Source: a virus
UHGV virus genome: UHGV-0142836
DNA length: 10,854 bases
Reading direction: 5' to 3' (one strand)
The notes under the pieces were generated by a model. It was not told the origin of the DNA and made no database searches. It saw only the letters and a list, made by a program, of their open reading frames with translations. Positions 1 through 10,854 of the stretch are shown here, piece after piece (within the stretch, counting starts at the first letter, position 1; each line of letters starts with the position of its first letter). The translations under genes were made by a program, and so were the position numbers.

Positions 1-692
1 TCATAGTTCCTTCGTAGTTCCTCTTAAAAAATCACTTACAGACACCTTAATATCTATACAGATTTCACGTAGAACACGATTAGTGCGTAAAACAGCTATT
101 ATGTTAAAAACACACTGTATACGTATCAGTACTGATTTATAAGGGTTTTGTGTATTTGAAGATAAGAGGCTATACAGCACCTTGAGAGCATGTCTTCTAA
201 GTCATTGATACATAAGGTCACAGAAGTTTGTGTCTGTTACAGAGAAAACTGGATAGGACTTCACAGAACTACAAAATGTTACAGCTATTGATAGGTGAAA
301 TCTTCTTGATAGATGCTTTGAAGTGTGGTGAAGGTTTCTTGAGGTGGAATTAACAGATGCTATGAAGAAAGTCAATAGTTGGTTATAGATATTTTAACTG
401 CTTTTGCAAAGGGGGTGCTATATCGTGAATCTGGGGTACTTAACAGCCATCAATCATGAGGTAGATTCTACCGAATCAACTGTGTAGATATTTTTAAGAT
501 TATCGGTGAAGGGGGAATGCAGAGGGGGTACTACGATTTTTATAAAAATTTTCAGAAGCTAAATAACTACTGTACAGATTTTATACAACTCTACCAAACA
601 TCATAGAAAGCTCTGTAGCGAGTTTTAACCCCATTTTTAGGGGTAGTCTATAGGTATGTACCGCCCACCTTTAAATAAAGGGGTAAAATCGC

Positions 693-723
693 TTAGAATG
701 CGTTACAGAGCGTCTGAGAAGCT
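693..723. repeat. Solo copy of an R2 arm (see R2 copies at 1949-2047 and 3622-3750)
   Basis: 'ttagaatgcgttacagagcgtctgagaagct' matches the reverse complement of 3622-3652 with about 4 central mismatches, and also resembles the R2 right-arm core 'cgttacagagcg'. Confidence 0.5.
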
Positions 724-1490
724 ATATTCACAGATTTTACTAAAACCTCAGACTTTCTAAGTGGTCTTTTTAACAGGAGGGTTCTTTCTCATGTATCACC
801 CTCTCTTCCCACTGAGTAAGCTACACAGACCTAGAGAACATGCCTTCACAACACCTATATAGGTCAGATTTAGAGGGTTTTGATAGAATCTTCAAAGGTA
901 CTTGACAGATAACTATGAAGTTGTTAGGAAGGAGTGTTTAACGGGGGAAGAGATACGATATAACCCGAAGGGGAGAGTATCATCTTAACAGTGATTGTAA
1001 GAGTAAAACTGAAAAGATACTTAACAGAACTACCAAGAGGGAGCGATAAGACCAGAGGTAGTGACCTTGTTAAACAGTTCGTTTCAAAGCTCTTAAGAAT
1101 CTGTTAAGTAAGGTCATGTGAACAATCTTACCATTTTGTCAATGCTTTTGTCTTTGACCTAAATCAATAAAATGTATCGTTTGATATGTTTTTAAACAAA
1201 ATAGTTAAAAATCTTTTTAGAGGTGCGCTTCGCTTGTGTCACCAATATCATTCTTCCCTGTCTAAGAGGGAAGTTACAGGGCATTTCAAAGCCCTCAATA
1301 GGCAAACCGAGGAATACGGAAAACCGAGGGAAGAAAAACTATTGTGATTACCTTGAACAAGGTCTGTAAAGGTCGTTTAAGAGGTCGGTTAAGAAGGGAG
1401 CTTCCCTTTCTTGGGTGTCGCTCTTCTCCCGCTTAGTGGATTGATTAAGAAGACCTCTGAAGTTTCTCTGTGAAGGTGCTGAACAGCTAT

Positions 1491-1543
1491 TATATTGGGT
1501 GATTACAACTTATTGAAAAATAAGAACTTTTATAAGTTACTGT
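1491..1543. repeat. 53-bp direct repeat, copy 1, containing palindrome 'cttattgaaaaataag' (1509-1524)
   Basis: First 42 bp are identical to 1585-1626, then 2 mismatches in the next 11 bp; internal 6-bp inverted repeat CTTATT/AATAAG around GAAA, followed by AACTT-ttat-AAGTT. Confidence 0.7.
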
Positions 1544-1584
1544 TAAGGTTACAGAGTTAACTGTGAAGAGACTTGTCAGTCTTA

Positions 1585-1637
1585 TATATTGGGTGATTAC
1601 AACTTATTGAAAAATAAGAACTTTTAGAAATTACTGT
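1585..1637. repeat. 53-bp direct repeat, copy 2 (94 bp downstream of copy 1)
   Basis: Same sequence as 1491-1543, including the internal palindromes. Confidence 0.7.
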
Positions 1638-1719
1638 CAGAGAGGTGAATACTTGATAGATACAGCTTTCCGGTTCTGTCAAGCTATTTTTTAATAGATA
1701 GCACAAAATGCTAAAGATA

Positions 1720-1749
1720 CCCCCCTATACATCTCGTACAGGGGGTTTT
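1720..1749. terminator. Probable bidirectional intrinsic terminator
   Basis: GC-rich hairpin 'cccccctatac-atctc-gtacaggggg' (about 9 of 10 bp paired) followed by TTTT on the plus strand and by a T-rich run on the minus strand; lies 10 bp beyond the stop of the minus-strand gene at 1759. Confidence 0.45.
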
Positions 1750-1758
1750 GGAGGGGGT

Positions 1759-1935
1759 TTAGCGGGGGTCTGTATGGTCATTATCCTTAAGGTCAAGCGT
1801 CCATGTACGACCGAACAGTTTAAAGACAACAAGCACCCTGACGAGGACGTAGCGAAGTAGCAGACCTGCAATAAGTCCAATACCTCCACCAGCCCACACA
1901 TCAGGTGACCCCAATTCCTGAGGGAGATTTACCAT
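1759..1935 (-). CDS. Small hydrophobic membrane protein, 58 aa (MVNLPQELGSPDVWAGGGIGLIAGLLLRYVLVRVLVVFKLFGRTWTLDLKDNDHTDPR)
   Basis: The six-frame ORF runs 1759-1977 from a TTG; the in-frame ATG at 1935-1933 is preceded by AAGGA about 7 nt upstream. One predicted transmembrane stretch (GGGIGLIAGLLLRYVLVRVLVVF). Terminator immediately downstream. Function not recognised. Confidence 0.4.
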   Translation of the reverse strand: MVNLPQELGSPDVWAGGGIGLIAGLLLRYVLVRVLVVFKLFGRTWTLDLKDNDHTDPR

Positions 1936-1948
1936 TAGTTTTCCTTGT

Positions 1949-2047
1949 AAGACGCTCTCAATCGCATTCTGACACAAAAAGTATCTGACCTTATGAGTTG
2001 ACCTGAAGAGGCCGTTTAACTCGTTACAGAGCGATTGAAGAGGTCTG
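1949..2047. repeat. R2 element copy 1: inverted-repeat arms (1951-1970 and 2014-2047) around a ~40-bp spacer
   Basis: Left arm 'gacgctctcaatcgcattct' and right arm 'gtttaactcgttacagagcgattgaagaggtctg' are near-identical to the arms at 3631-3650 and 3717-3750; the arms are imperfect reverse complements of each other (GCGATTGA core). Confidence 0.6.
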
Positions 2048-2079
2048 TGTGCAATGCAATAACCATGTGACCAAATACA

Positions 2080-2118
2080 TAGTTGATTCGGTTAGTTGGG
2101 ATTGTACCAACCCCTATC
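2080..2118. repeat. att-like composite repeat (left copy): 18-bp part A at 2080-2097 fused to 26-bp part B at 2093-2118
   Basis: 'tagttgattcggttagtt' is identical to 10825-10842; 'tagttgggattgtaccaacccctat' matches 10529-10554 with 2 mismatches. A degenerate A-like sequence 'catagttccttcgtagttcc' also sits at 2-21. Confidence 0.45.
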
Positions 2119-2204
2119 GAATAAACCTCATAGCCACGCCTTTATATTTTACTCTCCCCATAAACCCATTATACCACAGATGTTAATAAAATGTTAAAAA
2201 ATAC

Positions 2205-2233
2205 TTGACATTAGCCTTTGAAAATGCTAGGAT
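2205..2233 (+). promoter_or_regulatory. Sigma70-like promoter P1: TTGACA, 17-bp spacer, TGcTAGGAT (extended -10)
   Basis: TTGACA at 2205-2210 and TAGGAT at 2228-2233 with TG at 2225-2226; followed by 'ttgtatatat', which is shared with promoter P2 at 4197-4225. Confidence 0.4.
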
Positions 2234-2283
2234 TGTATATATGAGTTAACAGAGAATTAACAATTATAAGGGCCAGCTTATGA

Positions 2284-2835
2284 ATGAACGACAGAGAATT
2301 TCAAAAGTTTCTTGAAGAATCCAAGAGACGCAACAGACACAACGGTTACAGCCACACAAACAACCCCACCAGATACGAAGTCCCAGCCTTTACCAAATCC
2401 GAACGTAAAAACATTGAAGCGGTCATTCGTAGCATTACGCCACGAGACAGATTTATGCCAGCACGCAAAGAAAAAGAGAATACTTTAAAAACTTTCTTGA
2501 TGGGCTTTGATTCTTACGAGCAACTGCCAGCAAAAATTGAAGATTTAATTATCGGCACTTGTCGCAGCTTTGGAAGAGATAATTATCACCGAAAAGTTTT
2601 CTATTTACTACGAAATATTGACAAGATTAGCTCAAGCACAATAACAAGTCATCTACAGCGTCAAGCGACCCGATTAAGCCATGAGCTACCAAGCGATAAA
2701 TATTGCGCTAACTTAGCCACTATTTGCATGAAAGTTATTGAGACAATTAATCATCATGCGGAAATGGGAAATATCAGCCTTACGACAAGTGAGCCAGACT
2801 TTGAGTTTGACCCGTATATTTTGGAGGAATTTTAA
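2284..2835 (+). CDS. Hypothetical protein, 183 aa
   Basis: Intact ORF downstream of P1; its stop is 1 nt before the next start. No recognisable motif; weak Shine-Dalgarno. Confidence 0.55.
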   Translation: MNDREFQKFLEESKRRNRHNGYSHTNNPTRYEVPAFTKSERKNIEAVIRSITPRDRFMPARKEKENTLKTFLMGFDSYEQLPAKIEDLIIGTCRSFGRDNYHRKVFYLLRNIDKISSSTITSHLQRQATRLSHELPSDKYCANLATICMKVIETINHHAEMGNISLTTSEPDFEFDPYILEEF

Positions 2836-2836
2836 A

Positions 2837-3115
2837 ATGAATAAACACACTCTAACCCGTATTTCAGAGGAAGCTTTTAACGAGCTTAACAGAATTAAAC
2901 GAGCGACTAACCTGCCTCATCAGACTATTATGCAGCTTGCAATTGCTAAAGAGGTCACTGAGTCGGATTTACTGAAATATCCAGTTTCTAAAGGTCGCAG
3001 ACACATCAGAATTACTAAGAACGCTCTGGCTACTCTGAAGGAACTGAACAACTTTAAAATTGATATTGCCCGACTATTGAGCATCAAGATTCACAAGCTA
3101 TCGATGGGGGTTTAA
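2837..3115 (+). CDS. Putative small DNA-binding protein, 92 aa, possibly ribbon-helix-helix
   Basis: GGAGG at 2823-2827 sits 9 nt before ATG 2837. The track ORF (2738-3115) extends upstream inside the previous gene, so the internal ATG is preferred. N-terminus 'HTLTRISEEAFNELNRIKRATNLPHQTIMQLAIAKE' fits a strand-helix-turn-helix RHH pattern (inference only). Confidence 0.45.
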   Translation: MNKHTLTRISEEAFNELNRIKRATNLPHQTIMQLAIAKEVTESDLLKYPVSKGRRHIRITKNALATLKELNNFKIDIARLLSIKIHKLSMGV

Positions 3116-3318
3116 TGCTATGCATTACCTTTGAATACCACACAGATAAAATGATTCGCTACATCTCCGACCTCCTGATTAAAGGAAACGGATTCGGTGA
3201 CATCCATAACTCAAAAGATATTTTCATTAAAGCCATTGGCCCAAATGAAACACTGAAAACAGCAGTTAAACCGGAATGGTTTGAACGTCATAAGATTGAA
3301 TTAGGTTATTGGGGGTGA
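3115..3318 (+). CDS. Hypothetical protein, 67 aa
   Basis: Start overlaps the previous stop (TAATG at 3113-3117), indicating translational coupling. No recognisable motif. Confidence 0.45.
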   Translation: MLCITFEYHTDKMIRYISDLLIKGNGFGDIHNSKDIFIKAIGPNETLKTAVKPEWFERHKIELGYWG

Positions 3319-3327
3319 GGAGGTTTT

Positions 3328-3615
3328 ATGAAACCTTGGCATGAAGATGTTAGAAGATATTTTGCAGAACACCTTATCTATGATGAATCCAGTGATTCCC
3401 TGTGCTGGTCTGATGGAGAGTCAGTCACGATAAATACCGACGACTACGGCAACAAAACATTTAATATAGGTCGATACACATTCTATGTGAAATATGTTGT
3501 CTGGTTCCTTTATCATGGCTATCAATCCAATAAGCAAATTATCCATCGAAATGGTAACAGAGCCGATACCAGACCAAAAAACCTTATGCAAGTCCGAGAC
3601 TTTAAGAGAAATTAG
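3328..3615 (+). CDS. Small HNH-family endonuclease, 95 aa
   Basis: GAGGAGG immediately upstream of ATG 3328. C-terminal 'YVVWFLYHGYQSNKQIIHRNGNRADTRPKNLMQV' matches the phage HNH pattern (HRlvw...H-x-dGn-x-dNr-x-NL). Confidence 0.55.
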   Translation: MKPWHEDVRRYFAEHLIYDESSDSLCWSDGESVTINTDDYGNKTFNIGRYTFYVKYVVWFLYHGYQSNKQIIHRNGNRADTRPKNLMQVRDFKRN

Positions 3616-3621
3616 AAAAAC

Positions 3622-3750
3622 AGCTTCTCAGACGCTCTCAATCGCATTCTAACGCAAAAAACTACCTTGTTTTAGGGTGGGTAATACCACTGTACAGGCT
3701 ACCCCTGAAAAAGACTGTTTAGCTCGTTACAGAGCGATTGAGGAGGTCTG
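3622..3750. repeat. R2 element copy 2: arms at 3631-3650 and 3717-3750 around a ~66-bp spacer containing hairpin GGGTA...TACCC and palindrome CTGTACAG
   Basis: Arms near-identical to copy 1 while the spacer is unrelated; the element ends 5 nt before the AAGGAG Shine-Dalgarno of the gene at 3772. Confidence 0.6.
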
Positions 3751-3771
3751 GTAAAAAGGAGATTTTAAGAA

Positions 3772-4095
3772 ATGAACAATTACGAATTACAGATTTTCGT
3801 TGATGCCGACACTGCTATGATGATTCAGGCTTTCAGTGATTCCGGTGTATCAATTGACTTTGATAAATTACTAAAGCTGATGGCTGATAATGCAGAAAAC
3901 ATCTCTGACTTTATTCAGTCGGTGGAGTTTAACGAGCCTCGAATGATGCTACCAATTACAGACTCAAACATGAAAAGATTGGTTATTGAGCAAACGAACA
4001 AATACAGTATTTCCCCAGAGCAATTTTTGAAAGGTGCTGTGACAATCCTGTACAGCGATAATATTTTGGTGACGGATTCTGTGAGGATTCACTAA
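3772..4095 (+). CDS. Hypothetical protein, 107 aa
   Basis: AAGGAG sits 10 nt upstream of ATG 3772; intact ORF; no recognisable motif. Confidence 0.55.
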   Translation: MNNYELQIFVDADTAMMIQAFSDSGVSIDFDKLLKLMADNAENISDFIQSVEFNEPRMMLPITDSNMKRLVIEQTNKYSISPEQFLKGAVTILYSDNILVTDSVRIH

Positions 4096-4172
4096 TGACG
4101 TTAATTGTATTATGGACGCTGCTAGGGCTATTTGTTGGTTGCTGGATGGGTAACACAGTAAATAAGAATTGA
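4095..4172 (+). CDS. Candidate 25-aa hydrophobic micropeptide (MTLIVLWTLLGLFVGCWMGNTVNKN)
   Basis: ATG overlaps the upstream stop (TAATG at 4093-4097), the same coupling geometry as at 3113-3117; single hydrophobic helix. Below the ORF-track size cutoff, hand-translated. Confidence 0.25.
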   Translation: MTLIVLWTLLGLFVGCWMGNTVNKN

Positions 4173-4196
4173 TGTTACCAATCTGTTAAAAAGCTG

Positions 4197-4225
4197 TTGA
4201 CAAATAACATTGAGCATGACATAAT
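4197..4225 (+). promoter_or_regulatory. Sigma70-like promoter P2: TTGACA, 17-bp spacer, CATAAT
   Basis: TTGACA at 4197-4202 and CATAAT at 4220-4225, followed by 'ttgtatatat' exactly as in P1. Confidence 0.4.
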
Positions 4226-4232
4226 TGTATAT

Positions 4233-4416
4233 ATAGGGAGAGCAATTCTCTCTTATTTTCTTTCAATAATCCGATGGATGGATATTCTGAGTTGGAAAGG
4301 TGCAATGCTTTTCGTCATGGCCTTTCAGTTTAGTCTGAGAGGCTATCTCAAAAAGTGCTTAATCATTCATTGAACCCTTTACAGCTTTGCCCTAACTCAT
4401 GATTAGGGCTTTCTTT
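4233..4416 (+). ncRNA. Candidate small RNA or structured leader transcribed from P2, ending at the first terminator
   Basis: About 185 nt between the predicted start site and the terminator at 4389-4416; no ORF with a ribosome-binding site; hairpin GAGAG-caatt-CTCTC directly after the predicted start. Confidence 0.25.
4389..4416 (+). terminator. Intrinsic terminator T1
   Basis: Perfect 7-bp stem GCCCTAA / TTAGGGC with a 7-nt loop, followed by TTTCTTT. Confidence 0.5.
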
Positions 4417-4485
4417 AAGAGTTTTTAAACAGAGCTTTTAAAGAAAGTTTTTCCTGAAACTTCGTTAACGTTAAAGCAAACCTTC

Positions 4486-4519
4486 AAAGCCCTTCACAGA
4501 TTATGTTTAGGGCTTTTTT
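4486..4519 (+). terminator. Intrinsic terminator T2
   Basis: Stem 'aaagccct' / 'agggcttt' with a 15-nt loop, followed by a T-run; its 3' half 'tttagggcttt' repeats T1. Confidence 0.45.
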
Positions 4520-4629
4520 CAGCTTTTAAAAAGCATACTTGGCAAACCGCCTTTTAAGCCTCTTCTAAGTTCGTAGGATGTCAGGTGTGCTTTTTAAAAA
4601 CTGAATATTACTTAGAAGAGGAAAATGAA

Positions 4630-5337
4630 ATGGAAAATCTATATATTAGCGGTAGAAAGGTTGATAGCTTCGGTGACTGGTCGCCACAGACTGAACATCC
4701 AGCTATCACTATTCAGCGTCAAGAGCATGACAAGCGCATTGAGCTTGAGCAATCGCTAAAGATGTCACCAAAAACAACCATCTTTGTGTCTCCTGAACCT
4801 CAAGAGATGCCTGATGTTTGCAAGGGTGAAGCATTACTTGAGCTTGAAAAGAAATATTACCCACTGCTGAAAGCACAAAGAATTAAACTTGATGACGCTT
4901 ACAGCAAAGTTACCCTGATGCAATCAGCTATTGAGCCATCAGAATTTGAGATTCAGGATGAATTGTCACAGAAACCATTTGTCTATTACCAATACGAAGA
5001 CAATGATGGTTTTGGTACTTTTCCTGAGAATATCCCAGACGTGATTAATAATCTTCCTGATGGATATCGAATTGTGAAAATGATTGGAGCTTCAAGAGGT
5101 GATGGTCAGTTTATTTACATGACCAATAAGAGCGATGAAGAACTCCGTGAAATTGCCAGACAGAACATCTTAGCATCACGTAACAAGCAACTTGAAAATG
5201 TTAAGTTGTGTCTCTTAAGAGAGCTTCAGGCTATGAAAGACCTTATTTCTGCATATGAAACGCAGAAGAAGATTGCTATGCAGGCTGATATTGAGCAGTT
5301 AGTGAAGATTTCTCAGAAGTATAGCAAGGTACTTTAA
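4630..5337 (+). CDS. Hypothetical protein, 235 aa, with a predicted coiled-coil C-terminus
   Basis: The six-frame ORF begins at GTG 4585; the in-frame ATG at 4630 has a GAGGA Shine-Dalgarno about 8 nt upstream. No recognisable domain. Confidence 0.55.
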   Translation: MENLYISGRKVDSFGDWSPQTEHPAITIQRQEHDKRIELEQSLKMSPKTTIFVSPEPQEMPDVCKGEALLELEKKYYPLLKAQRIKLDDAYSKVTLMQSAIEPSEFEIQDELSQKPFVYYQYEDNDGFGTFPENIPDVINNLPDGYRIVKMIGASRGDGQFIYMTNKSDEELREIARQNILASRNKQLENVKLCLLRELQAMKDLISAYETQKKIAMQADIEQLVKISQKYSKVL

Positions 5338-5361
5338 CTAATAATTAAAAGGAGGTGATGA

Positions 5362-5577
5362 ATGATTGATTTGCAACAGCGTTATGAAACTATTAAGTCG
5401 GCTTGCAAAAACTTAAAGTTACAAACTAAGCCAGCCTTAAGAATTAAAACCAAACGTCAAGTTATCACCTCACACAAACCAAAAACACGCAAGATTCCAA
5501 AGTGGTGTATCGACCGTATCCCTTCTGATGCCCAAATCATAGGTGAAACGGAATTACATTATCTTGTCAGACATTAA
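5362..5577 (+). CDS. Hypothetical basic protein, 71 aa
   Basis: Strong Shine-Dalgarno AAGGAGGTGA before ATG 5362; Lys/Arg-rich; terminator follows. Confidence 0.5.
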   Translation: MIDLQQRYETIKSACKNLKLQTKPALRIKTKRQVITSHKPKTRKIPKWCIDRIPSDAQIIGETELHYLVRH

Positions 5578-5624
5578 AAAGATTGGTTGGGTGTATGAGA
5601 TAGGTTCTATCGAATCTATAACAC

Positions 5625-5668
5625 GGGGAGAGATTATCGATATTATTCGGTAGTTTCTCCCTTTTTTG
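5625..5668 (+). terminator. Intrinsic terminator after the 71-aa gene
   Basis: Stem GGGAGA (5626-5631) / TCTCCC (5656-5661), extendable with G-U pairs, followed by TTTTTT at 5662-5667. Confidence 0.5.
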
Positions 5669-5684
5669 TATATGAGATAGTCTT

Positions 5685-5769
5685 CTATCGAATCCTATGT
5701 GCTACGTGAAATCTTCTGAACAGATATACCCACCAAAAATTATTTTTTACGTAGCTCACGCTTAACAGA
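5685..5769 (+). repeat. R1 element copy a: conserved stem-loop (GCTACGTGAA 5701-5710 pairing with TTTACGTAGC 5745-5754) plus box 'tcacgcttaacaga', 16 nt before ATG 5785
   Basis: About 85% identical over ~85 bp to 7957-8034, with the same spacing to the downstream start codon. Confidence 0.65.
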
Positions 5770-5784
5770 GGTGAAATATGAACA

Positions 5785-7875
5785 ATGGCACAATTTAAAG
5801 TTGATAGTTTTATCGTTGAGCTAGGCTTCAGCGAGAGCGTTATTAAGGGCTTGCAAAGAGTTGAAAAGGCAGCTTTGCAGTCAGCACAAAGAATTGAAAA
5901 GAACCTAAATAAAGGTTTTAGGATTAATACAAAGCAGCTTGATAGTAATTTAACGGCTTCTTTAGGGCAGCTTGAAAGAAAGTTTAATAAGACTTTTGAT
6001 AAGATTGAACAGAGAGCAAGAAATACTAAAGCTTTCCAGTTTACAACCAGATTTAATGACACTGTTAATCCTCCAAAACAATCAAGGCAACCACGAATTA
6101 GCGGAAACAGAGCAATCACAGCAGCGCATAGCGTGAATATGTCTAAGCTTGGTGATATTAATCCGCTGATGGCTAAAATGTTTAAAGCACAGTATTACAG
6201 CTTAAGCGGTAAGGCTGGTAATATTGGAAGTGAAAAGTTTAACGCTGAACTTGCAAAATTAAATCAATCTCTTCGTGAAACGTTGAATAAACTCAGGTCA
6301 CAGACAAAGACCACCAGCAAAAACAATCACAGTGAAAATGCTTCGAATGGTCTGGATGTATTAGCTACGAGTGCAATCAAAGCAGGTACAGCCATTTATA
6401 GTTTTCAGACAGCCTTAGAAGCTTACAAGAAGGTTATGGAGGTTGGTCTGAAAAAAGAAGCATCACAACGAGCGGCACAATTCGTTTTAGGTGATGAAGG
6501 TGCTAAACGAGCTACAGAATTTGTGAAGAATCTTGCTAATAATACAGGTGTTGACCAGATTGAGACATTAAGCAGCTTTGCTAAGTTTTCCGCTGGTGCT
6601 GGTGATATGAATGCAGACCAGAAAGAATCCTTATTTAGTAATGTGATTGGTACATCCCGACTAATGGGTTTAAGCACTGATGAGATTAACGGGATTCTAA
6701 AAGCTTTCGAGCAGATGGCTTCTAAAGGGAAGATTCAGGCTGAAGAGCTACGTGGTCAATTAGGGGACAGAATGGCAGGTGCTTTTCAGTTATTTGCCAG
6801 AAGCCTTGGGATGACTACAGAGCAATTAGATGCAGCTATGAAGAACGGTAAAGTTCTTTCTAAAGATGTTCTTCCTAAAGTATCCGCTGAAATGGGAAGG
6901 ATGATTGATAAAGCTGGTGGATGGGAAAAGATTATTAACTCTACTCAGACGCAGTTAGGCCGCCTTTCTAATTCATGGAATAATAATCTGGCCTTAATGT
7001 TCGATGGTTCACAGGAAGGTTTAACAGACTTTACAAGGTCACTGACTAATTTACTTAATTCGCTAGGTGGGCAATCTAAAAATCTTGGTGAACATTTTGG
7101 CGACTTGATGAAAAGTATGTCAAACGGTATTGATGATTTAACCACGATTAGCTACCGAGTGCAGGGATTCTTTGACAGAGTGACCCTTGCTTACAGAGAA
7201 TTAAATGACACTCAAAAAGCTGTAGCTGATGGTATCGCAAATGGCCTGTTAAGTGCATTAAAGGGACTTGCTGGTATTGTTGCTGTAAGGTCTGGTATTG
7301 GTGCTGTAGGTGGCATCTGGAACTTAATTAGGGCTATTTCCACGCTTGGAAATGTAGCAAATACAGCAGCGGGAAGAATCAATTCACGTTCTGGTACTGG
7401 TAGTGTTGAAGGTGGTAAAGGAAAATTATCTGTAGCTGATGCAATTACCAAAGTAATGATTGTTGGTATGGCAACTGATGTGATTAACTCCATTGTTAAA
7501 CCGTTCTATGAACGTCAGATGAGTAAGTCAGATAATCCAATTGACAAAGTTGTAAGGTCAAAGGTGGAACCCACAGACCAAGCATTGACTGGTGACATGA
7601 ACTCTTTAGCTGCTGTTTTATGGGCTATGGTTCAGGGCAAATCAAAGGATGTTCCACAGCTTTCACCTGAAGCATTAAATAATCTGAAAGGTCGAGTGGA
7701 AACATTCACACAAGATTTAAAGGTTATCAAGCCGTCAGTAAACATTCAGCCTCAGACAATCAATATCACAACTCAGACGGTACTTGATGGAAAGGTTATT
7801 GATGAAAGAACCACATCGCATATTAATCGTATGCAGGAAGATACCTTGATTAGCTCAGCTTACCCAGAGGAATAA
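5785..7875 (+). CDS. Protein with a phage tail tape-measure-like domain, 696 aa
   Basis: The segment 'FEQMASKGKIQAEELRGQLGDRMAGAFQLFARSLGMTTEQLDAAMKNGKVLSKDVLPKV' resembles the conserved tape-measure domain of lambda-like phages; Gly/Ala-rich hydrophobic stretch 'GLLSALKGLAGIVAVRSGIGAVGG'. Unusually short for a tape measure and lacking neighbouring tail genes. Confidence 0.5.
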   Translation: MAQFKVDSFIVELGFSESVIKGLQRVEKAALQSAQRIEKNLNKGFRINTKQLDSNLTASLGQLERKFNKTFDKIEQRARNTKAFQFTTRFNDTVNPPKQSRQPRISGNRAITAAHSVNMSKLGDINPLMAKMFKAQYYSLSGKAGNIGSEKFNAELAKLNQSLRETLNKLRSQTKTTSKNNHSENASNGLDVLATSAIKAGTAIYSFQTALEAYKKVMEVGLKKEASQRAAQFVLGDEGAKRATEFVKNLANNTGVDQIETLSSFAKFSAGAGDMNADQKESLFSNVIGTSRLMGLSTDEINGILKAFEQMASKGKIQAEELRGQLGDRMAGAFQLFARSLGMTTEQLDAAMKNGKVLSKDVLPKVSAEMGRMIDKAGGWEKIINSTQTQLGRLSNSWNNNLALMFDGSQEGLTDFTRSLTNLLNSLGGQSKNLGEHFGDLMKSMSNGIDDLTTISYRVQGFFDRVTLAYRELNDTQKAVADGIANGLLSALKGLAGIVAVRSGIGAVGGIWNLIRAISTLGNVANTAAGRINSRSGTGSVEGGKGKLSVADAITKVMIVGMATDVINSIVKPFYERQMSKSDNPIDKVVRSKVEPTDQALTGDMNSLAAVLWAMVQGKSKDVPQLSPEALNNLKGRVETFTQDLKVIKPSVNIQPQTINITTQTVLDGKVIDERTTSHINRMQEDTLISSAYPEE

Positions 7876-7899
7876 ACAATGTTAGAACTACTAATATTT

Positions 7900-7917
7900 A
7901 TTGCCACACATGGCAAT
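7900..7917. repeat. Perfect palindrome ATTGCCA-caca-TGGCAAT just downstream of the 696-aa gene
   Basis: 7-bp arms with a 4-nt spacer; possible weak terminator or operator. No clear T-tract. Confidence 0.3.
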
Positions 7918-7956
7918 CTATTAATCTTTATCTAGTATGACGATTCAACTATGAAT

Positions 7957-8034
7957 AGTCGAATGCTACGTGATTTCTTCTGAACAGATACCAACATCAA
8001 AAATTAGATTTCACGTAGCTCACGCTTAACAGAA
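7957..8034 (+). repeat. R1 element copy b: stem GCTACGTGA (7965-7973) / TCACGTAGC (8011-8019), box 'tcacgcttaacaga' (8020-8033), 15 nt before ATG 8049
   Basis: Perfect 9-bp stem with a 37-nt loop whose sequence ('tcttctgaacagata...caaaaatta') is conserved with copy a. Confidence 0.65.
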
Positions 8035-8048
8035 TAGGAATAACAACA

Positions 8049-8819
8049 ATGTTTGACACAAAGCAAATTAGATACTCAGGTAAAGATGGTATCTATTTTC
8101 ACCTTAGAGATAATGTAGAATCTTTTCTTGCCTTAACAGCTACTGAACAGATGGACTATGACAGCCCTATGATGGTGACAACTCAGGCTATGCAATCAGG
8201 GCAAACCGTCACAGATAATGTTCAGAGAGCACCTAAGACCATCTCTATTAGCGGTGTTGTAGTGGTTGATTCGACGGGTTCAATTCTATTAACCAGACAG
8301 GGGCAACTTGTAGAGACCTTTATTTCTACGGTTGAACAATGGCGAGACCAGAAGCAAATCATCACTATTGTTTGTAGAGATGGAATAGCTATCACTGATA
8401 GTATCATTACTCAGTTTAAAGCGAGTAAAGAGCATACCATTGCTAATGGTCTTCGTATTCAGATGACCTTCCAAGGTGTAGAATTTCGTTCAATCGTAGG
8501 TCAAACTGATATTTCGGCTGCAACTGGAAAAGCCGCGACTACGAATGATGGTGGTGCTACCAGTAAAAAGAATACAGGGAATACTACGACAAGTTTAGGT
8601 AATGGTATGTTGCTGTGTCAGGAGTTATATAATCGCTCTACGAGTGAACTCACTAATGAGCAACTTCAAGCCCGTATCAATTGTGGTAGAAGTGTCAAAG
8701 TTGAGAACGGAAAAAGCACCTTCTCAGATGCCGCTAATGAGCAGGCTTCAAAAGTGCTTAAGTCGGGTAATGCTTTACGGAAATTTAGTGTGAATCCGAA
8801 TAAGAAGGGCACTTATTGA
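8049..8819 (+). CDS. Hypothetical protein, 256 aa, with a Thr/Gly/Ser-rich central region
   Basis: Intact ORF immediately after R1b; no recognisable motif. A distal-tail or other structural role is conceivable only from its position after the tape-measure-like gene. Confidence 0.55.
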
Positions 8820-8828
8820 GACATAAAA

Positions 8829-8846
8829 AGGGGCTTCATAGCCCCT
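8829..8846. terminator. Bidirectional terminator between the convergent 256-aa gene and the recombinase gene
   Basis: Perfect stem AGGGGC / GCCCCT with a 6-nt loop, flanked by AAAAA upstream (a T-run on the minus strand, so it reads as a terminator for the recombinase transcript). Confidence 0.5.
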
Positions 8847-8851
8847 GAAAA

Positions 8852-10372
8852 TTACAGTTGATAAGCGTCAATATCCAGTAGCTCTTTATCAGCAATTTCA
8901 AAGATTGGTGACCCATCATTTAGCGGTAACGGGTTTGTAGGTATGGTGATTTTAGTGTCGTTCTGTAGCGTTACAGTTACCGAATCCTTACCCAATGTAA
9001 GCCCTTTTAGATGTTTGGACAAAATCAACTGACACTCGACACGACCTGCTTTAGTTGTCAGGTCAATATCTTTAAGCTGGGGTAGTTCCTTATCAGTGAG
9101 TGAAGCCTTACGCCTCATGTTATCAATCGTGGTCTGTAGCTCTGTGCGCTTCTGGTTAAGTCCCTTCACCTGTGTTTTCAACTCTGTAATATCATCCATT
9201 TCAAGAAGTAGGGCGGTAGCTTTCTTGATTCTAGCTGTGACAATTTCAACCTCATGCTGTAACGCTGCAATCTTCCTCTCTGATTCTCCATCATTCCCCA
9301 CGTCAATCATCCCCAGAAAATTATCAATCATCCATCGGTCAAACGGTTTACGCTTCAACGGTGGAACATCACAGCGACCGTCAGGATTGTTATTGCACCT
9401 GTAAACTCCTGCATACTTATTCTTAGTCCCTGTAGGGTGAACACTAGCCCCACACTGACACCGGAATAATCCCTTGAAGATGTTAATCGTTAATGGGTTA
9501 TCACTTGCAGGTGTACGGCCTTTACGATTTTTATCGAGGATTTCTTGAGCTTTATTGAACGTTGCAGCATCTATAGCGGCTTCGTAGTAGTTCGGTATAG
9601 CGGGGCGGTCATTGCGCTGTGATGCTGGTAACGTGCCTATTGTTGTCTCCGACCTTAAGATGGTGCGTACAGAGTGGACACTAAACCCGTTAGCATCTTT
9701 ACGCCGTGAGAATGAACTAATGTTATTAGCCTGTAGGTGACGTGCAATGTTATGTAGACTTTCACCATCTAGCAGCAGTTTGAAAATCAGTCTTACAGTC
9801 TCAGCGTGTTCATTGACTTCAAAAGTCTCAGGGTCAATCCATCCGGGGACCATCTTTGTTAAACGTTGTTTACCAGCAAGGGCAAGTTTTGCACGTTGCC
9901 CCCATTTCTGAGAAACACGGAAAGACTTCTGTTTACTCTCCTGATGCGCTAGGTAGCTTTTAACCCGCTGAATGATTGAGATTCCTAAATCATCGGATAG
10001 AGCATCCCTTGTGTAGATTAGCCCATCCTGTAGAGTGTGAATCTCGATACCATGAGCAATAATGCGGTTCATCAAGGCTTCTGTTTCAAGGTGTTCTAAG
10101 CGGCCTATACGGTCGATACTCTCAACAAGCAAAATCGTACCTTTTGAAAACTCCCCAGACTCAATACGGGCTAACATGTCACCAAACTGACCAGTAAGGT
10201 GCTTACCTTTGTAACCGGATAGACCCTCATCACTGAAAGACGCTACTACTTGAGCATCGCTATTCTTCTTCAACCATTGCTTGAACAGGTCATTTTGTCG
10301 TCTGGTTGAATCTGCACCTTCAGCGCCTTGTATGGCTGAACTGTACCGAAGGTATGTAATTACGCTTCTCAT
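8852..10372 (-). CDS. Large serine recombinase (phage or element integrase), 506 aa
   Basis: N-terminal resolvase-type catalytic domain (YLRYSS...Q with the Ser nucleophile, DEGLSGYKG, IDRIGR); a Cys cluster (CQCGASVH...YRCNNNPDGRCD) consistent with a zinc ribbon; C-terminal coiled-coil segment. Confidence 0.9.
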   Translation of the reverse strand: MRSVITYLRYSSAIQGAEGADSTRRQNDLFKQWLKKNSDAQVVASFSDEGLSGYKGKHLTGQFGDMLARIESGEFSKGTILLVESIDRIGRLEHLETEALMNRIIAHGIEIHTLQDGLIYTRDALSDDLGISIIQRVKSYLAHQESKQKSFRVSQKWGQRAKLALAGKQRLTKMVPGWIDPETFEVNEHAETVRLIFKLLLDGESLHNIARHLQANNISSFSRRKDANGFSVHSVRTILRSETTIGTLPASQRNDRPAIPNYYEAAIDAATFNKAQEILDKNRKGRTPASDNPLTINIFKGLFRCQCGASVHPTGTKNKYAGVYRCNNNPDGRCDVPPLKRKPFDRWMIDNFLGMIDVGNDGESERKIAALQHEVEIVTARIKKATALLLEMDDITELKTQVKGLNQKRTELQTTIDNMRRKASLTDKELPQLKDIDLTTKAGRVECQLILSKHLKGLTLGKDSVTVTLQNDTKITIPTNPLPLNDGSPIFEIADKELLDIDAYQL

Positions 10373-10528
10373 GGTGATAAACTCTCATGCAATTGATTAT
10401 CATTTAAAGATAAGCTTATAACCGTTATGGCTAATGCTACAATGCCGAATAGCTACAATACAATGACCCTTGAATGAAGTCTATTCGGTTTTCTAAGAGA
10501 CCTGTTAAAAACAGGACAATATCAGGTG

Positions 10529-10554
10529 TAGTTGGGCTTGTTCCAACCCCTATG
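10529..10554. repeat. att-like repeat part B (right copy), containing hairpin GTTGG-gcttgtt-CCAAC
   Basis: 'tagttgggcttgttccaacccctat' matches 2093-2118 with 2 mismatches; lies about 155 bp upstream of the recombinase start. Confidence 0.4.
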
Positions 10555-10824
10555 ACTATGCAATTTTCCAAGTATCTAAGCAGTTTTACACAGATTCTAT
10601 GCAGTATCGGTATAGTCCCTTTTTATCATAACTTATTGAAATATATAAAGAATATGTGAAGTCCCTTTTCAGGGTAAACTGTATCGTGTTAGTCGTCCCT
10701 CTCCAGACTCCTAGAAAAGTGCTATATACAGGAGTATATAACGCTATATAGATGTTTGGTCACCATACGTTACAGTTGCAAGAGATAACAATCAGCTATG
10801 TGAAAGTTAGGAGGTGATGGTTAT

Positions 10825-10842
10825 AGTTGATTCGGTTAGTTC
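10825..10842. repeat. att-like repeat part A (right copy), 18 bp identical to 2080-2097
   Basis: Exact 18-bp direct repeat about 8.75 kb from its partner; flanking sequence differs on both sides, as expected for a recombination junction. Confidence 0.45.
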
Positions 10843-10854
10843 TAGGAATCAACC

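What the first reader, a model, noticed from the sequence alone, without database searches (positions are those of the whole stretch)
1..1758. 1.75 kb stretch with no ORF of 60 aa or more, dense in hairpins, direct repeats and G-runs
Mobile elements and phages are normally coding-dense, yet no frame on either strand carries an ORF of 60 aa or more here. The stretch holds the 53-bp direct repeats (1491-1543, 1585-1637), adjacent perfect hairpins (CTTCCCT-gtctaag-AGGGAAG at about 1263-1283; AGGGC-atttcaaa-GCCCT; AAGGGA-gct-TCCCTT at about 1393-1407), an AT-rich block (about 1130-1240), G5 runs (411-415, 508-531, 945-975), a solo R2 arm (693-723) and a degenerate R1 fragment (58-96). Candidate explanations: one or more large structured non-coding RNAs, a replication origin or packaging region with iteron-like repeats, or a decayed remnant of a related element. 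All three stop codons recur in every frame, so stop-codon reassignment does not rescue an ORF.
Basis: seen in the sequence. Interest (0 to 1): 0.65.

Follow-up and report, generated by a model that had tools for sequence, protein, structure and literature searches.

The report
Satellite control region mimicking helper-phage ends
The gene-free stretch is real non-coding DNA in a small circular element that probably parasitises Felix O1-type phages, and parts of it copy the DNA at the ends of those phages' genomes, most likely so that the phage packages the element.

Summary
Window 1-1758 is non-coding. It belongs to a 2.24-kb gene-free region (10373 through the circular junction to 1758) of a complete circular 10,854-bp element. 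That element carries a large serine recombinase and copies of the tape-measure and baseplate genes of Felix O1-like (Ounavirinae) phages. It is integrated in about 10% of complete E. coli genomes.

No small ORF stays intact in relatives. No remnants of the cargo genes of relatives are present. There is no Rfam hit, no general excess of RNA folding stability and no covariation.

Two patches are homologous to the ~600-bp direct terminal repeat (DTR) of the presumed helper phages:
- 354-588 matches the DTR right end, which is mapped experimentally in phage UAB_Phi87, plus the adjacent unique flank.
- 1027-1133 matches an island inside the DTR.

Both patches match the best-conserved islands of the helper DTR. 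A version of the DTR-end patch is found in all 11 family members compared. Blocks 1040-1240 and 1585-1720 are 91-99% identical between relatives, against about 80% at four-fold degenerate sites.

Best reading: a cis-acting hub holding a packaging-site mimic, a possible origin, attP, cargo slots and terminators. It is not a large RNA and not decayed genes. No experiment tests function. No paper describing this element was found.

The parts
1..1758 (.). Main part of the gene-free region (the finding)
   Evidence: No conserved ORF. PGAP annotates nothing in the homologous stretch of E. coli genomes.
10373..10854 (.). Rest of the same gene-free region across the circular junction. It holds the attP crossover at about 10461-10494 and cargo slot 1 at about 10494-10564.
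   Evidence: Window 10560-10834 lies directly left of window 3-583 in integrated copies. Matches to integrated copies end at 10473. The assemblies are circular.
354..443 (+). Homologue of the last ~90 nt of the helper DTR, including the TTTTGCAAAGGGGG box at 402-415. The predicted helper-type terminus lies at 442/443.
   Evidence: 74.8% identity by blastn to Ounavirinae phages. Alignments A1 and A3. The UAB_Phi87 DTR sequence was determined by Bal31 digestion and run-off sequencing (PMC4837284 Fig S1). A 544-bp DTR in the MET-P1-301 record ends within a few nt of the same place. A helper profile matches window 354-451 with E 1.8e-5.
444..588 (+). Homologue of the unique helper DNA just inside the DTR. 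It holds the 27-nt core CATGAGGTAGATTCTACCGAATCAACT (455-481) and the palindrome TTTTATAAAAATTTT (about 537-551).
   Evidence: nhmmer with satellite block 360-600 gives E 1e-8 to 1e-10 against four enterobacterial helper sequences and 1.6e-4 against an Erwinia phage. The core is 100% conserved in L005 and L014, whose flanks are only about 70% identical.
592..723 (-). Diverged inverted copy of the R2 palindromic element, located at cargo slot 3 (583/802)
   Evidence: 69% identity in inverted orientation to R2 in L003 and L014. Fold z -4.5. Relatives carry AP2/ERF or Dam genes at this position.
1027..1133 (+). Homologue of a conserved island inside the helper DTR (UAB_Phi87 DTR positions about 232-350)
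   Evidence: Smith-Waterman z of about 10 against shuffles for three helper sequences. nhmmer E 2.8e-5 to 1e-3. The reverse helper profile gives E 1.4e-7. The island is 0.9-0.95 identical among three helper genera.
1082..1231 (.). Best-conserved non-coding block, AT-rich, with inverted repeats GGTCA...TGACC and ATCAA...TTGAT. Candidate origin or protein-binding platform.
   Evidence: 95-100% identity across 10 relatives. Block 1040-1240 is 93-99% identical, against 79-82% at four-fold degenerate sites of the genes.
1370..1394 (+). Tandem 12-13-nt unit GGTCGGTTAAGAA, 2 copies here and 3-4 in relatives
   Evidence: TRF. Alignment.
1491..1678 (+). 94-bp tandem duplication that carries the two 53-bp repeats. 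Each repeat holds the palindrome CTTATTgaaaAATAAG.
   Evidence: D4. Single copy in L002, L013 and L014. Related 20-mers at 8811 and 10631 (D5 and D9).
1585..1720 (.). Second strongly conserved block, with inverted repeats CTTGATAGA...TCTGTCAAG and TAGCA...TGCTA
   Evidence: 91-97% identity to relatives, against about 80% at synonymous sites.
1721..1745 (-). Intrinsic terminator that closes the leftward small gene and bounds the gene-free region
   Evidence: Stem of 11 pairs followed by a T-rich tail. The stem is kept in relatives.
1759..1935 (-). Small (58 aa) hydrophobic protein gene, the first real gene to the right of the region
   Evidence: Called in metagenome contigs and by PGAP in relatives. 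tblastn gives 69% identity.
2168..2233 (.). Divergent sigma-70-like promoters: leftward TTAACA-18-TATAAT and rightward TTGACA-17-TAGGAT

Best explanation
The stretch is the larger part of a 2.24-kb cis-acting, non-coding hub in a 10.85-kb integrative element. That element looks like a satellite of virulent Felix O1-like (Ounavirinae) myoviruses.

Shown by the analysis:
- The element is circular in metagenome assemblies and integrated at several E. coli chromosomal sites.
- It has a large serine recombinase and phage-like tape-measure and baseplate genes. No capsid, terminase or DNA-replication gene was recognised.
- Window 354-588 is homologous to the right boundary of the helper phages' ~600-bp direct terminal repeat (DTR) plus the adjacent unique DNA.
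- Window 1027-1133 is homologous to a conserved island inside that repeat.
- Blocks 1040-1240 and 1585-1720 are under purifying selection.
- Relatives insert cargo genes at three fixed slots in this region.

Inferred, not shown:
- During helper infection the element excises and replicates, perhaps from the conserved AT-rich block at 1082-1231 using helper enzymes.
- Its concatemers are then recognised and cut by the helper terminase at the DTR-junction mimic, with the predicted cut near 442/443, so the element is packaged into helper capsids.
- The remaining repeats (R2 copy, 53-bp duplication, 13-nt tandem, palindromes) would be regulator binding sites, terminators and recombination boundaries.
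For: Element identity:
- Pfam and PHROG assignments of the genes.
- About 75% nt identity of the tape-measure and baseplate genes to Ounavirinae phages.
- Matches in 570 of 5,426 complete E. coli genomes, always chromosomal, at different sites such as yecE, yciI/tonB and ymdF.
- Circular 10,909-bp contigs with a 55-nt overlap.

Non-coding status:
- No ORF of 25 aa or more is intact in more than 6 of 10 relatives.
- Relatives carry frameshifting indels in the 53-aa ORF.

Helper homology:
- Direct similarity and alignments.
- Profile searches in both directions.
- Shuffle control with z of about 10.
- The UAB_Phi87 DTR was mapped experimentally (PMC4837284). A 544-bp DTR in the MET-P1-301 record has the same boundaries to within a few nt. 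A 581-bp DTR is reported for Pr103Blw (PMC8303462).
- The DTR right end is the only part of the 1.6-kb helper gap that is conserved as far as Erwinia phages.
- The two satellite patches coincide with the best-conserved helper islands.
- All 11 family members match the helper DTR-end profile despite being mosaic.
- A 27-nt core is present or absent in both satellites and helpers.

Constraint:
- Non-coding blocks are 91-99% identical, against 79-82% at four-fold degenerate sites.
Against: - There are no experimental data on induction, packaging or termini of this element.
- No homologue of the helper DTR left boundary was found in the window. Relatives give only weak hits, E 1e-3 to 1e-2.
- The two helper-like patches are not in helper order.
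- The TGTTAAG array that precedes the helper DTR end is not reproduced upstream of the satellite copy.
- Four of ten relatives lack the 27-nt core.
- Identity of blocks 371-600 and 800-1040 is about neutral, 77-82%, except that L005 is 94.6% identical over 800-1040.
- The homology could be a relic of the same capture event that brought in the tail genes.
- No replication initiator or small terminase was recognised among the element's proteins.
Confidence: 0.6

Rival explanations
1. One or more large structured non-coding RNAs (GOLLD-, ROOL- or OMEGA-like, or an intron) are transcribed from the stretch.
For: - GC skew is positive on the + strand across 1-1600.
- Windows 601-750, 1151-1300 and 1601-1750 have fold z of about -4.5.
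- A weak TTGACA-N17-TAGGAA site lies at 903-932, paralogous to the real promoter at 2205 (D7).
Against: - No Rfam family matches at gathering score, and the best E-values are about 4.
- Most 150-nt windows have z near 0.
- RNAalifold finds no consistent structure and no covariation benefit.
- The negative-z windows are explained by an R2 palindrome copy and a terminator.
- The TTGACA at 903 is not conserved in L002, L003, L004 or L012.
Confidence: 0.07
2. The stretch is decayed coding sequence, that is, pseudogenes of cargo or core genes.
For: Relatives carry intact genes inside the homologous region: AP2/ERF-domain protein, Dam methylase, small serine recombinases and hypothetical proteins.
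Against: - tblastn with eight of these proteins finds nothing in the window's gene-free region. The best E is 0.76, apart from the real small gene.
- The cargo genes are insertions at three discrete slots, not aligned to window sequence.
- The blocks between slots are conserved above synonymous-site level.
Confidence: 0.04
3. The helper-like patches are inert relics of the recombination that brought in the tail genes. The region is mainly a transcription-control and cargo-integration platform (promoters, operators, terminators, recombination boundaries), and packaging is directed elsewhere or does not occur. On this reading the element would be a defence island rather than a satellite.
For: - Mosaic module boundaries lie at about 380, 588, 768-802 and 928.
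- R2 copies sit at cassette borders.
- YTTAACAG occurs 14 times against 1.3 expected, and copies lie just upstream of three genes.
- The 12-mer ACCGAATCAACT occurs 3 times against 0.05 expected.
- Blocks 371-600 are only about 80% identical.
Against: - The patches coincide with the most conserved helper islands.
- The DTR-end patch is retained in all 11 members, in two divergent versions.
- The 27-nt core is 100% conserved in otherwise divergent flanks.
- Circular copies are abundant enough in metagenomes to assemble as closed contigs.
Confidence: 0.2
4. The stretch encodes several very small proteins (under 60 aa).
For: - ORFs of 53-59 aa exist.
- A strong AGGAGG lies 10 nt upstream of an ATG at 792.
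Against: - None of the ORFs of 25 aa or more inside 1-1758 is intact in more than 6 of 10 relatives, and most are intact in 0-2.
- Indels of 1-2 nt occur in the 53-aa ORF.
- The sequence after the AGGAGG is variable, with indels.
Confidence: 0.04

Closest known systems
P4 satellite cos region, which mimics the P2 helper cos
   Same: A small (~11 kb) integrative element without capsid or terminase genes carries a copy of the helper's genome-end recognition sequence in a non-coding region. (From my own knowledge of P4/P2.)
   Different: - The helper here is a virulent DTR-type myovirus, not a temperate cos phage.
- The mimic is of a DTR boundary plus flank, at about 74% identity.
- The integrase is a large serine recombinase.
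- The element carries tail genes (tape measure, baseplate) rather than capsid-size or transactivation genes.
PLE of Vibrio cholerae, a satellite of the virulent phage ICP1
   Same: - It parasitises a virulent phage.
- It has a large serine recombinase.
- Its GC content is low and matches the helper's.
- It has a sizeable non-coding region with repeats.
(PLE features come from the abstracts listed and from my own knowledge.)
   Different: - No protein similarity to PLE genes was seen.
- PLE has its own RepA, with iterons in its non-coding region. Here no initiator was recognised, and the 53-bp repeats are a polymorphic duplication.
T7/T3 concatemer-junction packaging signals
   Same: In short-DTR phages the sequences needed for cutting and packaging lie in and next to the terminal repeat, and plasmids carrying the junction are packaged as multimers. 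(My own knowledge, not tested here.)
   Different: Nothing is known experimentally about packaging signals in Felix O1-like phages. The analogy is the basis of the inference, not evidence for it.
The 1.6-kb non-coding gap of Felix O1-like phages
   Same: - It is gene-free and bounded by terminators of converging genes.
- It is rich in short repeats.
- It contains the DTR.
- It shares two homologous patches with the window.
   Different: - The helper gap has arrays of TGTTAAG/TTGTTA: 7 and 14 copies in 1.64 kb, 12-15 times the genome average. The window does not reproduce these.
- The order of the shared patches differs.

Membership tests
Phage satellite (integrative, helper-dependent element) | Site-specific integrase and chromosomal integration with an att site | tested here: met
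   Large serine recombinase gene. Integrated copies interrupt yecE or lie next to yciI/tonB or ymdF, and the junction lies at about 10461-10494.
Phage satellite (integrative, helper-dependent element) | Lacks a full set of virion and replication genes but shares some genes or sites with a specific helper | tested here: met
   Only the tape-measure and baseplate proteins have phage structural assignments. No capsid, terminase or polymerase gene is found. These two genes and two non-coding patches match Ounavirinae.
Phage satellite (integrative, helper-dependent element) | Exists as an excised, free form | tested here: met
   Two independent 10,909-bp contigs with 55-nt end overlap, in different permutations, 100% identical to the window.
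Phage satellite (integrative, helper-dependent element) | Helper-dependent induction, packaging and transfer | not testable with these tools
   Needs infection experiments. No paper on such an element was found.
Helper packaging-site mimic (P4 cos type) | Sequence homology to the helper DNA at its mapped genome terminus | tested here: met
   Window 354-588 against the DTR right boundary of UAB_Phi87, MET-P1-301, SFPB and others.
Helper packaging-site mimic (P4 cos type) | Cleavage or packaging by the helper terminase at that site | not testable with these tools
   No virion-DNA end data exist for the element.
Iteron-type replication origin | Three or more phased short direct repeats next to an AT-rich stretch, bound by an element-encoded initiator | tested here: not met
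   The AT-rich conserved block is present. The 53-bp repeats are two copies of a 94-bp duplication and are single in 3 of 10 relatives. The only tandem array is 2 x 12 nt. No Rep-like protein was recognised.
Known large structured RNAs (GOLLD, ROOL, OMEGA/HEARO, group I and II introns and other Rfam families) | Covariance-model match | tested here: not met
   0 matches at gathering score over the whole window. The best E-values are 3.8-7.4, to unrelated miRNA and sRNA models.
Known large structured RNAs (GOLLD, ROOL, OMEGA/HEARO, group I and II introns and other Rfam families) | Excess folding stability and compensatory base changes | tested here: not met
   z is near 0 for most windows. The alifold covariation term is near zero or positive, and few pairs are compensatory. 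Power is limited: 11 sequences at 75-95% identity.
Pseudogene remnant | Residual similarity to intact genes at the homologous position in relatives | tested here: not met
   tblastn with eight cargo proteins finds no hit.
Invertible segment (Hin/Gin type) | Inverted repeats flanking a segment found in both orientations, with an invertase | tested here: not met
   Inverted 12-mers lie at 470-481 and 10825-10836. No relative has the segment inverted, and the window has no small recombinase. Three relatives do carry one in this slot.

The most novel reading that the evidence does not exclude
The stretch is the cis-acting hub of an undescribed, widespread family of satellites of virulent Felix O1-like phages. 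On this reading:
- The helper terminase is captured by a mimic of the DTR boundary.
- The presence or absence of the 27-nt core matches satellite variants to helper variants.
- The 10.85-kb genome is packaged as head-to-tail multimers. Eight copies are 86.8 kb, about the size of the helper genome.
- The multimers are resolved to monomers after injection.
Probability: 0.3. Interest if true: 0.8.

Novelty: new variant of a known kind. Interest (0 to 1): 0.62.

Why it matters
Satellites of virulent phages are known in few systems, for example PLE with ICP1 and PICMI in vibrios. An element in about one in ten E. coli genomes that copies the genome-end signals and tail genes of Felix O1-type phages matters in three ways:
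- It would affect how these widely used typing, biocontrol and therapy phages perform.
- It would be a route of gene transfer, because relatives carry cargo genes in this region.
- It would point to where the still unmapped packaging signals of Ounavirinae lie, because the parts of the 1.6-kb phage gap that the satellite keeps are the candidates.

The claim can be tested directly with existing strains and phages.

Tried and rejected
- Rfam at gathering and at E-value thresholds, and ARAGORN: nothing.
- Plasmid collection: no match.
- Genome-contig scan with the 183-aa protein: one fragment only.
- Small-ORF coding: rejected.
- Cargo-gene remnants: rejected.
- Physical ends from database records:
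  - The KMM2 record ends are only a 64-bp assembly overlap.
  - The UAB_Phi87 and mistaenkt records are not opened at the physical ends.
  - Only the paper's supplement and the MET-P1-301 record were informative.
- R1, R2 and the 53-bp repeat have no counterpart in the helper genome SFPB.
- YTTAACAG/CTGTTAAR is not enriched genome-wide in SFPB.
- The sigma-70-like site at 903 is not conserved.
- Inversion of segment 10837-469 was not seen.
- The 235-aa protein that NCBI names 'transposase':
  - No Pfam, PHROG or NCBIfam hit.
  - Only 20 representatives among 1.8 billion proteins.
- Contig ends in a high-coverage sample map to 315, 3937-3991 and 5373, not to the predicted terminus. They are probably strain-variant branch points.
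Full report
OBSERVATION

Window 1-1758 has no complete ORF of 60 aa or more; the longest are 59 and 57 aa. The 53-bp direct repeats are real: 96% identical and 94 bp apart. The three small hairpins, the G runs and the AT-rich block are all in the sequence. The first hairpin is at 1253-1273, not 1263-1283.

Two statistical points temper the description:
- 24% of shuffles of the same composition also lack an ORF of 60 aa or more.
- Fold z-scores of 150-nt windows are near zero over most of the stretch, so it is not generally dense in stable hairpins.

The window is a circular permutation:
- In integrated relatives, window 10560-10834 lies directly left of window 3-583.
- Two metagenome contigs of 10,909 bp are 100% identical to the window, start at different points and carry a 55-nt end overlap.

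The gene-free region therefore runs from the recombinase start at 10372, through the junction, to 1758. That is 2,240 bp, a fifth of the element.

WHAT THE ELEMENT IS

Its genes are:
- a 183-aa protein;
- a 92-aa protein, read as an overlapping 125-aa ORF from an upstream TTG, with a weak DndE/RHH-like hit;
- a 67-aa protein;
- an HNH_3 endonuclease;
- 107-, 235- and 71-aa proteins;
- a tape-measure protein and a Dit-like baseplate protein;
- a large serine recombinase on the other strand.

No capsid, terminase or replication gene was recognised. The tape-measure and baseplate genes are about 75% identical at the DNA level to those of Felix O1-like phages (Ounavirinae), and the GC content of 38% matches those phages.

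The element is found in 570 of 5,426 complete E. coli genomes, always on the chromosome and at several sites. Homologous proteins occur in Salmonella, Shigella, Citrobacter and other Escherichia species. Many contigs of 11-12 kb carry these proteins, and one is named 'MAG TPA Caudoviricetes sp.'. This is the profile of a phage satellite. I found no paper describing one for Felix O1-like phages.

THE STRETCH IS NEITHER CODING NOR DECAYED CODING SEQUENCE

I aligned ten relatives across the region.
- No ORF of 25 aa or more is intact in more than 6 of the 10, and most are intact in 0-2.
- The 53-aa ORF at 1186-1347 has 1-2-nt indels in relatives.
- Relatives carry intact cargo genes (AP2/ERF-domain protein, Dam methylase, small serine recombinases, hypothetical proteins). 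These are insertions at three slots: about 10494/10564, about 10828/385-486 and 583/802.
- tblastn with these proteins finds no trace of them in the window.

The window is a cargo-free variant.

IT IS NOT A LARGE STRUCTURED RNA, AS FAR AS THESE TESTS REACH
- No Rfam family matches, and there is no tRNA or tmRNA.
- There is no general excess of folding energy.
- RNAalifold on the few negative-z windows gives no covariation benefit.
- Those windows are explained by other features. 592-723 is a diverged inverted copy of the R2 palindromic element that also occurs at 1944-2047 and 3624-3750. 1721-1745 is the terminator of the leftward 58-aa gene, which is driven from divergent promoters at 2168-2233.

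HOMOLOGY TO THE HELPER GENOME ENDS

Window 371-504 matches 33 Ounavirinae genomes at about 74% identity, in unannotated DNA near record ends. In these phages the match lies in a 1.6-kb gene-free gap between converging gene blocks.

The helper terminal repeat is mapped:
- For phage UAB_Phi87 a 608-bp direct terminal repeat (DTR) was determined by Bal31 digestion and run-off sequencing, and its sequence is in the supplement of PMC4837284.
- The MET-P1-301 record carries a 544-bp repeat at both ends, with the same boundaries to within a few nucleotides.
- A 581-bp DTR is reported for Pr103Blw.

Aligned to these, window 354-443 corresponds to the last ~90 nt of the DTR, including the invariant TTTTGCAAAGGGG box. 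The boundary falls at window 442/443. Window 444-588 corresponds to the unique DNA just inside the repeat.

A second patch, 1027-1133, matches an island inside the DTR:
- Smith-Waterman z of about 10 against shuffles.
- nhmmer E 3e-5 to 1e-3.
- The reverse helper profile gives E 1.4e-7.

Profile searches in both directions find nothing comparable elsewhere in the 88.5-kb SFPB genome.

The shared patches are the constrained parts of the helper gap:
- The DTR right end is the only part conserved as far as Erwinia phages.
- The interior island and the DTR end are 0.9-0.97 identical among three genera.

All 11 satellite copies match the DTR-end profile, in two divergent versions.

A 27-nt core next to the boundary, CATGAGGTAGATTCTACCGAATCAACT at 455-481, behaves as follows:
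- It is 100% conserved in L005 and L014, whose flanks are about 70% identical to the window.
- It is missing, as a clean indel, from four relatives.
- It is likewise present in some helpers (SFPB, KMM2, and IMG/VR contigs whose lengths match the Moogle, SP116, VpaE1 and BPS17W1 genomes) and absent from others (finno, mistaenkt).

CONSTRAINT WITHIN THE SATELLITE FAMILY

Against four relatives, four-fold degenerate sites of four genes are 79-82% identical, and codon positions 1 and 2 are 90-93% identical.
- Block 1040-1240 is 93-99% identical and block 1585-1720 is 91-97% identical.
- Blocks 371-600 and 800-1040 are about neutral apart from the core; L005 is the exception for 800-1040, at 94.6%.

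The first conserved block joins the DTR-interior homologue to an AT-rich segment with inverted repeats. The second holds one 53-bp repeat and two further inverted repeats.

The 53-bp repeats are a 94-bp tandem duplication that is single in L002, L013 and L014. A 12-13-nt unit at 1370-1394 varies from 2 to 4 copies.

MECHANISM

Shown: the homology, the conservation, the circular form, the integration, and the absence of coding and of RNA-structure signals.

Inferred:
- The DTR-junction copy lets the helper terminase recognise and cut satellite concatemers, as the P4 cos site does with P2.
- The conserved AT-rich block next to the DTR-interior homologue may be an origin or a loading platform used by helper proteins.
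- The other repeats serve regulation and cassette exchange.

Weak points:
- No DTR left-boundary homologue was found in the window.
- The two patches are not in helper order.
- The helper TGTTAAG array is not reproduced.
- Four relatives lack the core.
- No initiator or small terminase was recognised. The 235-aa protein that NCBI calls 'transposase' has no family hit, and its model matches only coiled coils.

VERDICT

The large-RNA and decay options are not supported.

The kind of feature is known: a satellite's cis-acting region that mimics helper genome ends. This combination was not found in the papers searched:
- a virulent helper that packages with DTRs;
- a mimic of a repeat boundary;
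- tail genes on the satellite;
- about 10% prevalence in E. coli.

Noticed in passing
window 1-10854 (whole): The window is a complete circular 10,854-bp element. It has a large serine recombinase, an HNH endonuclease and Felix O1-like tape-measure and baseplate genes. It is integrated in 570 of 5,426 complete E. coli genomes at several sites. No paper on it was found.
   Followed up: partly
window 5700-5787 and 7964-8051 (R1): An 88-nt repeat lies directly upstream of the tape-measure and baseplate genes. It holds a 17-nt-arm inverted repeat (GCTACGTGAAATCT...AGATTTCACGTAGC) followed by CTTAACAG and the ribosome-binding site. It is absent from the helper genome SFPB.
   Followed up: partly
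window-wide, e.g. 439, 769, 984, 1020, 2885, 5761, 7020, 8025, 8132 (+): The octamer YTTAACAG occurs 14 times against 1.3 expected, 9 of them on the + strand. Copies (exact, or GTTAACAG at 2245) lie 24-39 nt upstream of the start codons of the 183-aa, tape-measure and baseplate genes. It is not enriched in the helper genome.
   Followed up: partly
window 470-481 (+), 2081-2092 (-), 10825-10836 (-): The 12-mer ACCGAATCAACT, the 3' half of the helper-junction core, occurs 3 times against 0.05 expected. The two minus-strand copies sit in a 19-nt direct repeat, ATAGTTGATTCGGTTAGTT.
   Followed up: partly
window 2078-2134: This short segment is absent from most relatives. It is related to 10529-10553 near attP (D16), and in L005 it lies near the left end of the element.
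   Followed up: no
L002 6877-7401; L003 6469-7044; L014 1737-2279; L015 1490-2038; L010 527-1192; L013 186-1106: Relatives carry variable cargo genes inside the gene-free region at three fixed slots: AP2/ERF-domain protein, Dam methylase, small serine recombinases and unknown proteins. Their functions are unknown and were not examined.
   Followed up: partly
L001 4045-5682 (Shigella phage SFPB) and other Ounavirinae: The helper phages themselves have a 1.6-kb gene-free gap between converging genes. It contains the DTR and arrays of TGTTAAG/TTGTTA motifs at about 10-nt spacing just before the DTR right end. I found no functional study of it.
   Followed up: partly
window 455-481 versus L002, L004, L012, L013 and phages finno, mistaenkt: The same 27-nt core next to the DTR boundary is present or absent as a clean indel in both the satellite family and the helper phages. 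This suggests matching specificity, or exchange between the two.
   Followed up: partly
window 4630-5337 (+): The 235-aa protein is named 'transposase' in many NCBI records. It has no Pfam, NCBIfam or PHROG hit and only 20 representatives in 1.8 billion proteins. Its model is a long helical hairpin plus a small alpha/beta domain.
   Followed up: partly
window (size): Eight copies of 10,854 bp make 86,832 bp, close to the 86-88-kb helper genome. This may be coincidence, or it may hint at packaging as multimers.
   Followed up: no
L034, L021 (ENA ERZ652298): Fragments 100% identical to the window assemble at about 1,500x coverage in one sample. Contig breaks fall at window 315, 3937-3991 and 5373, so the element is very abundant there.
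   Followed up: no
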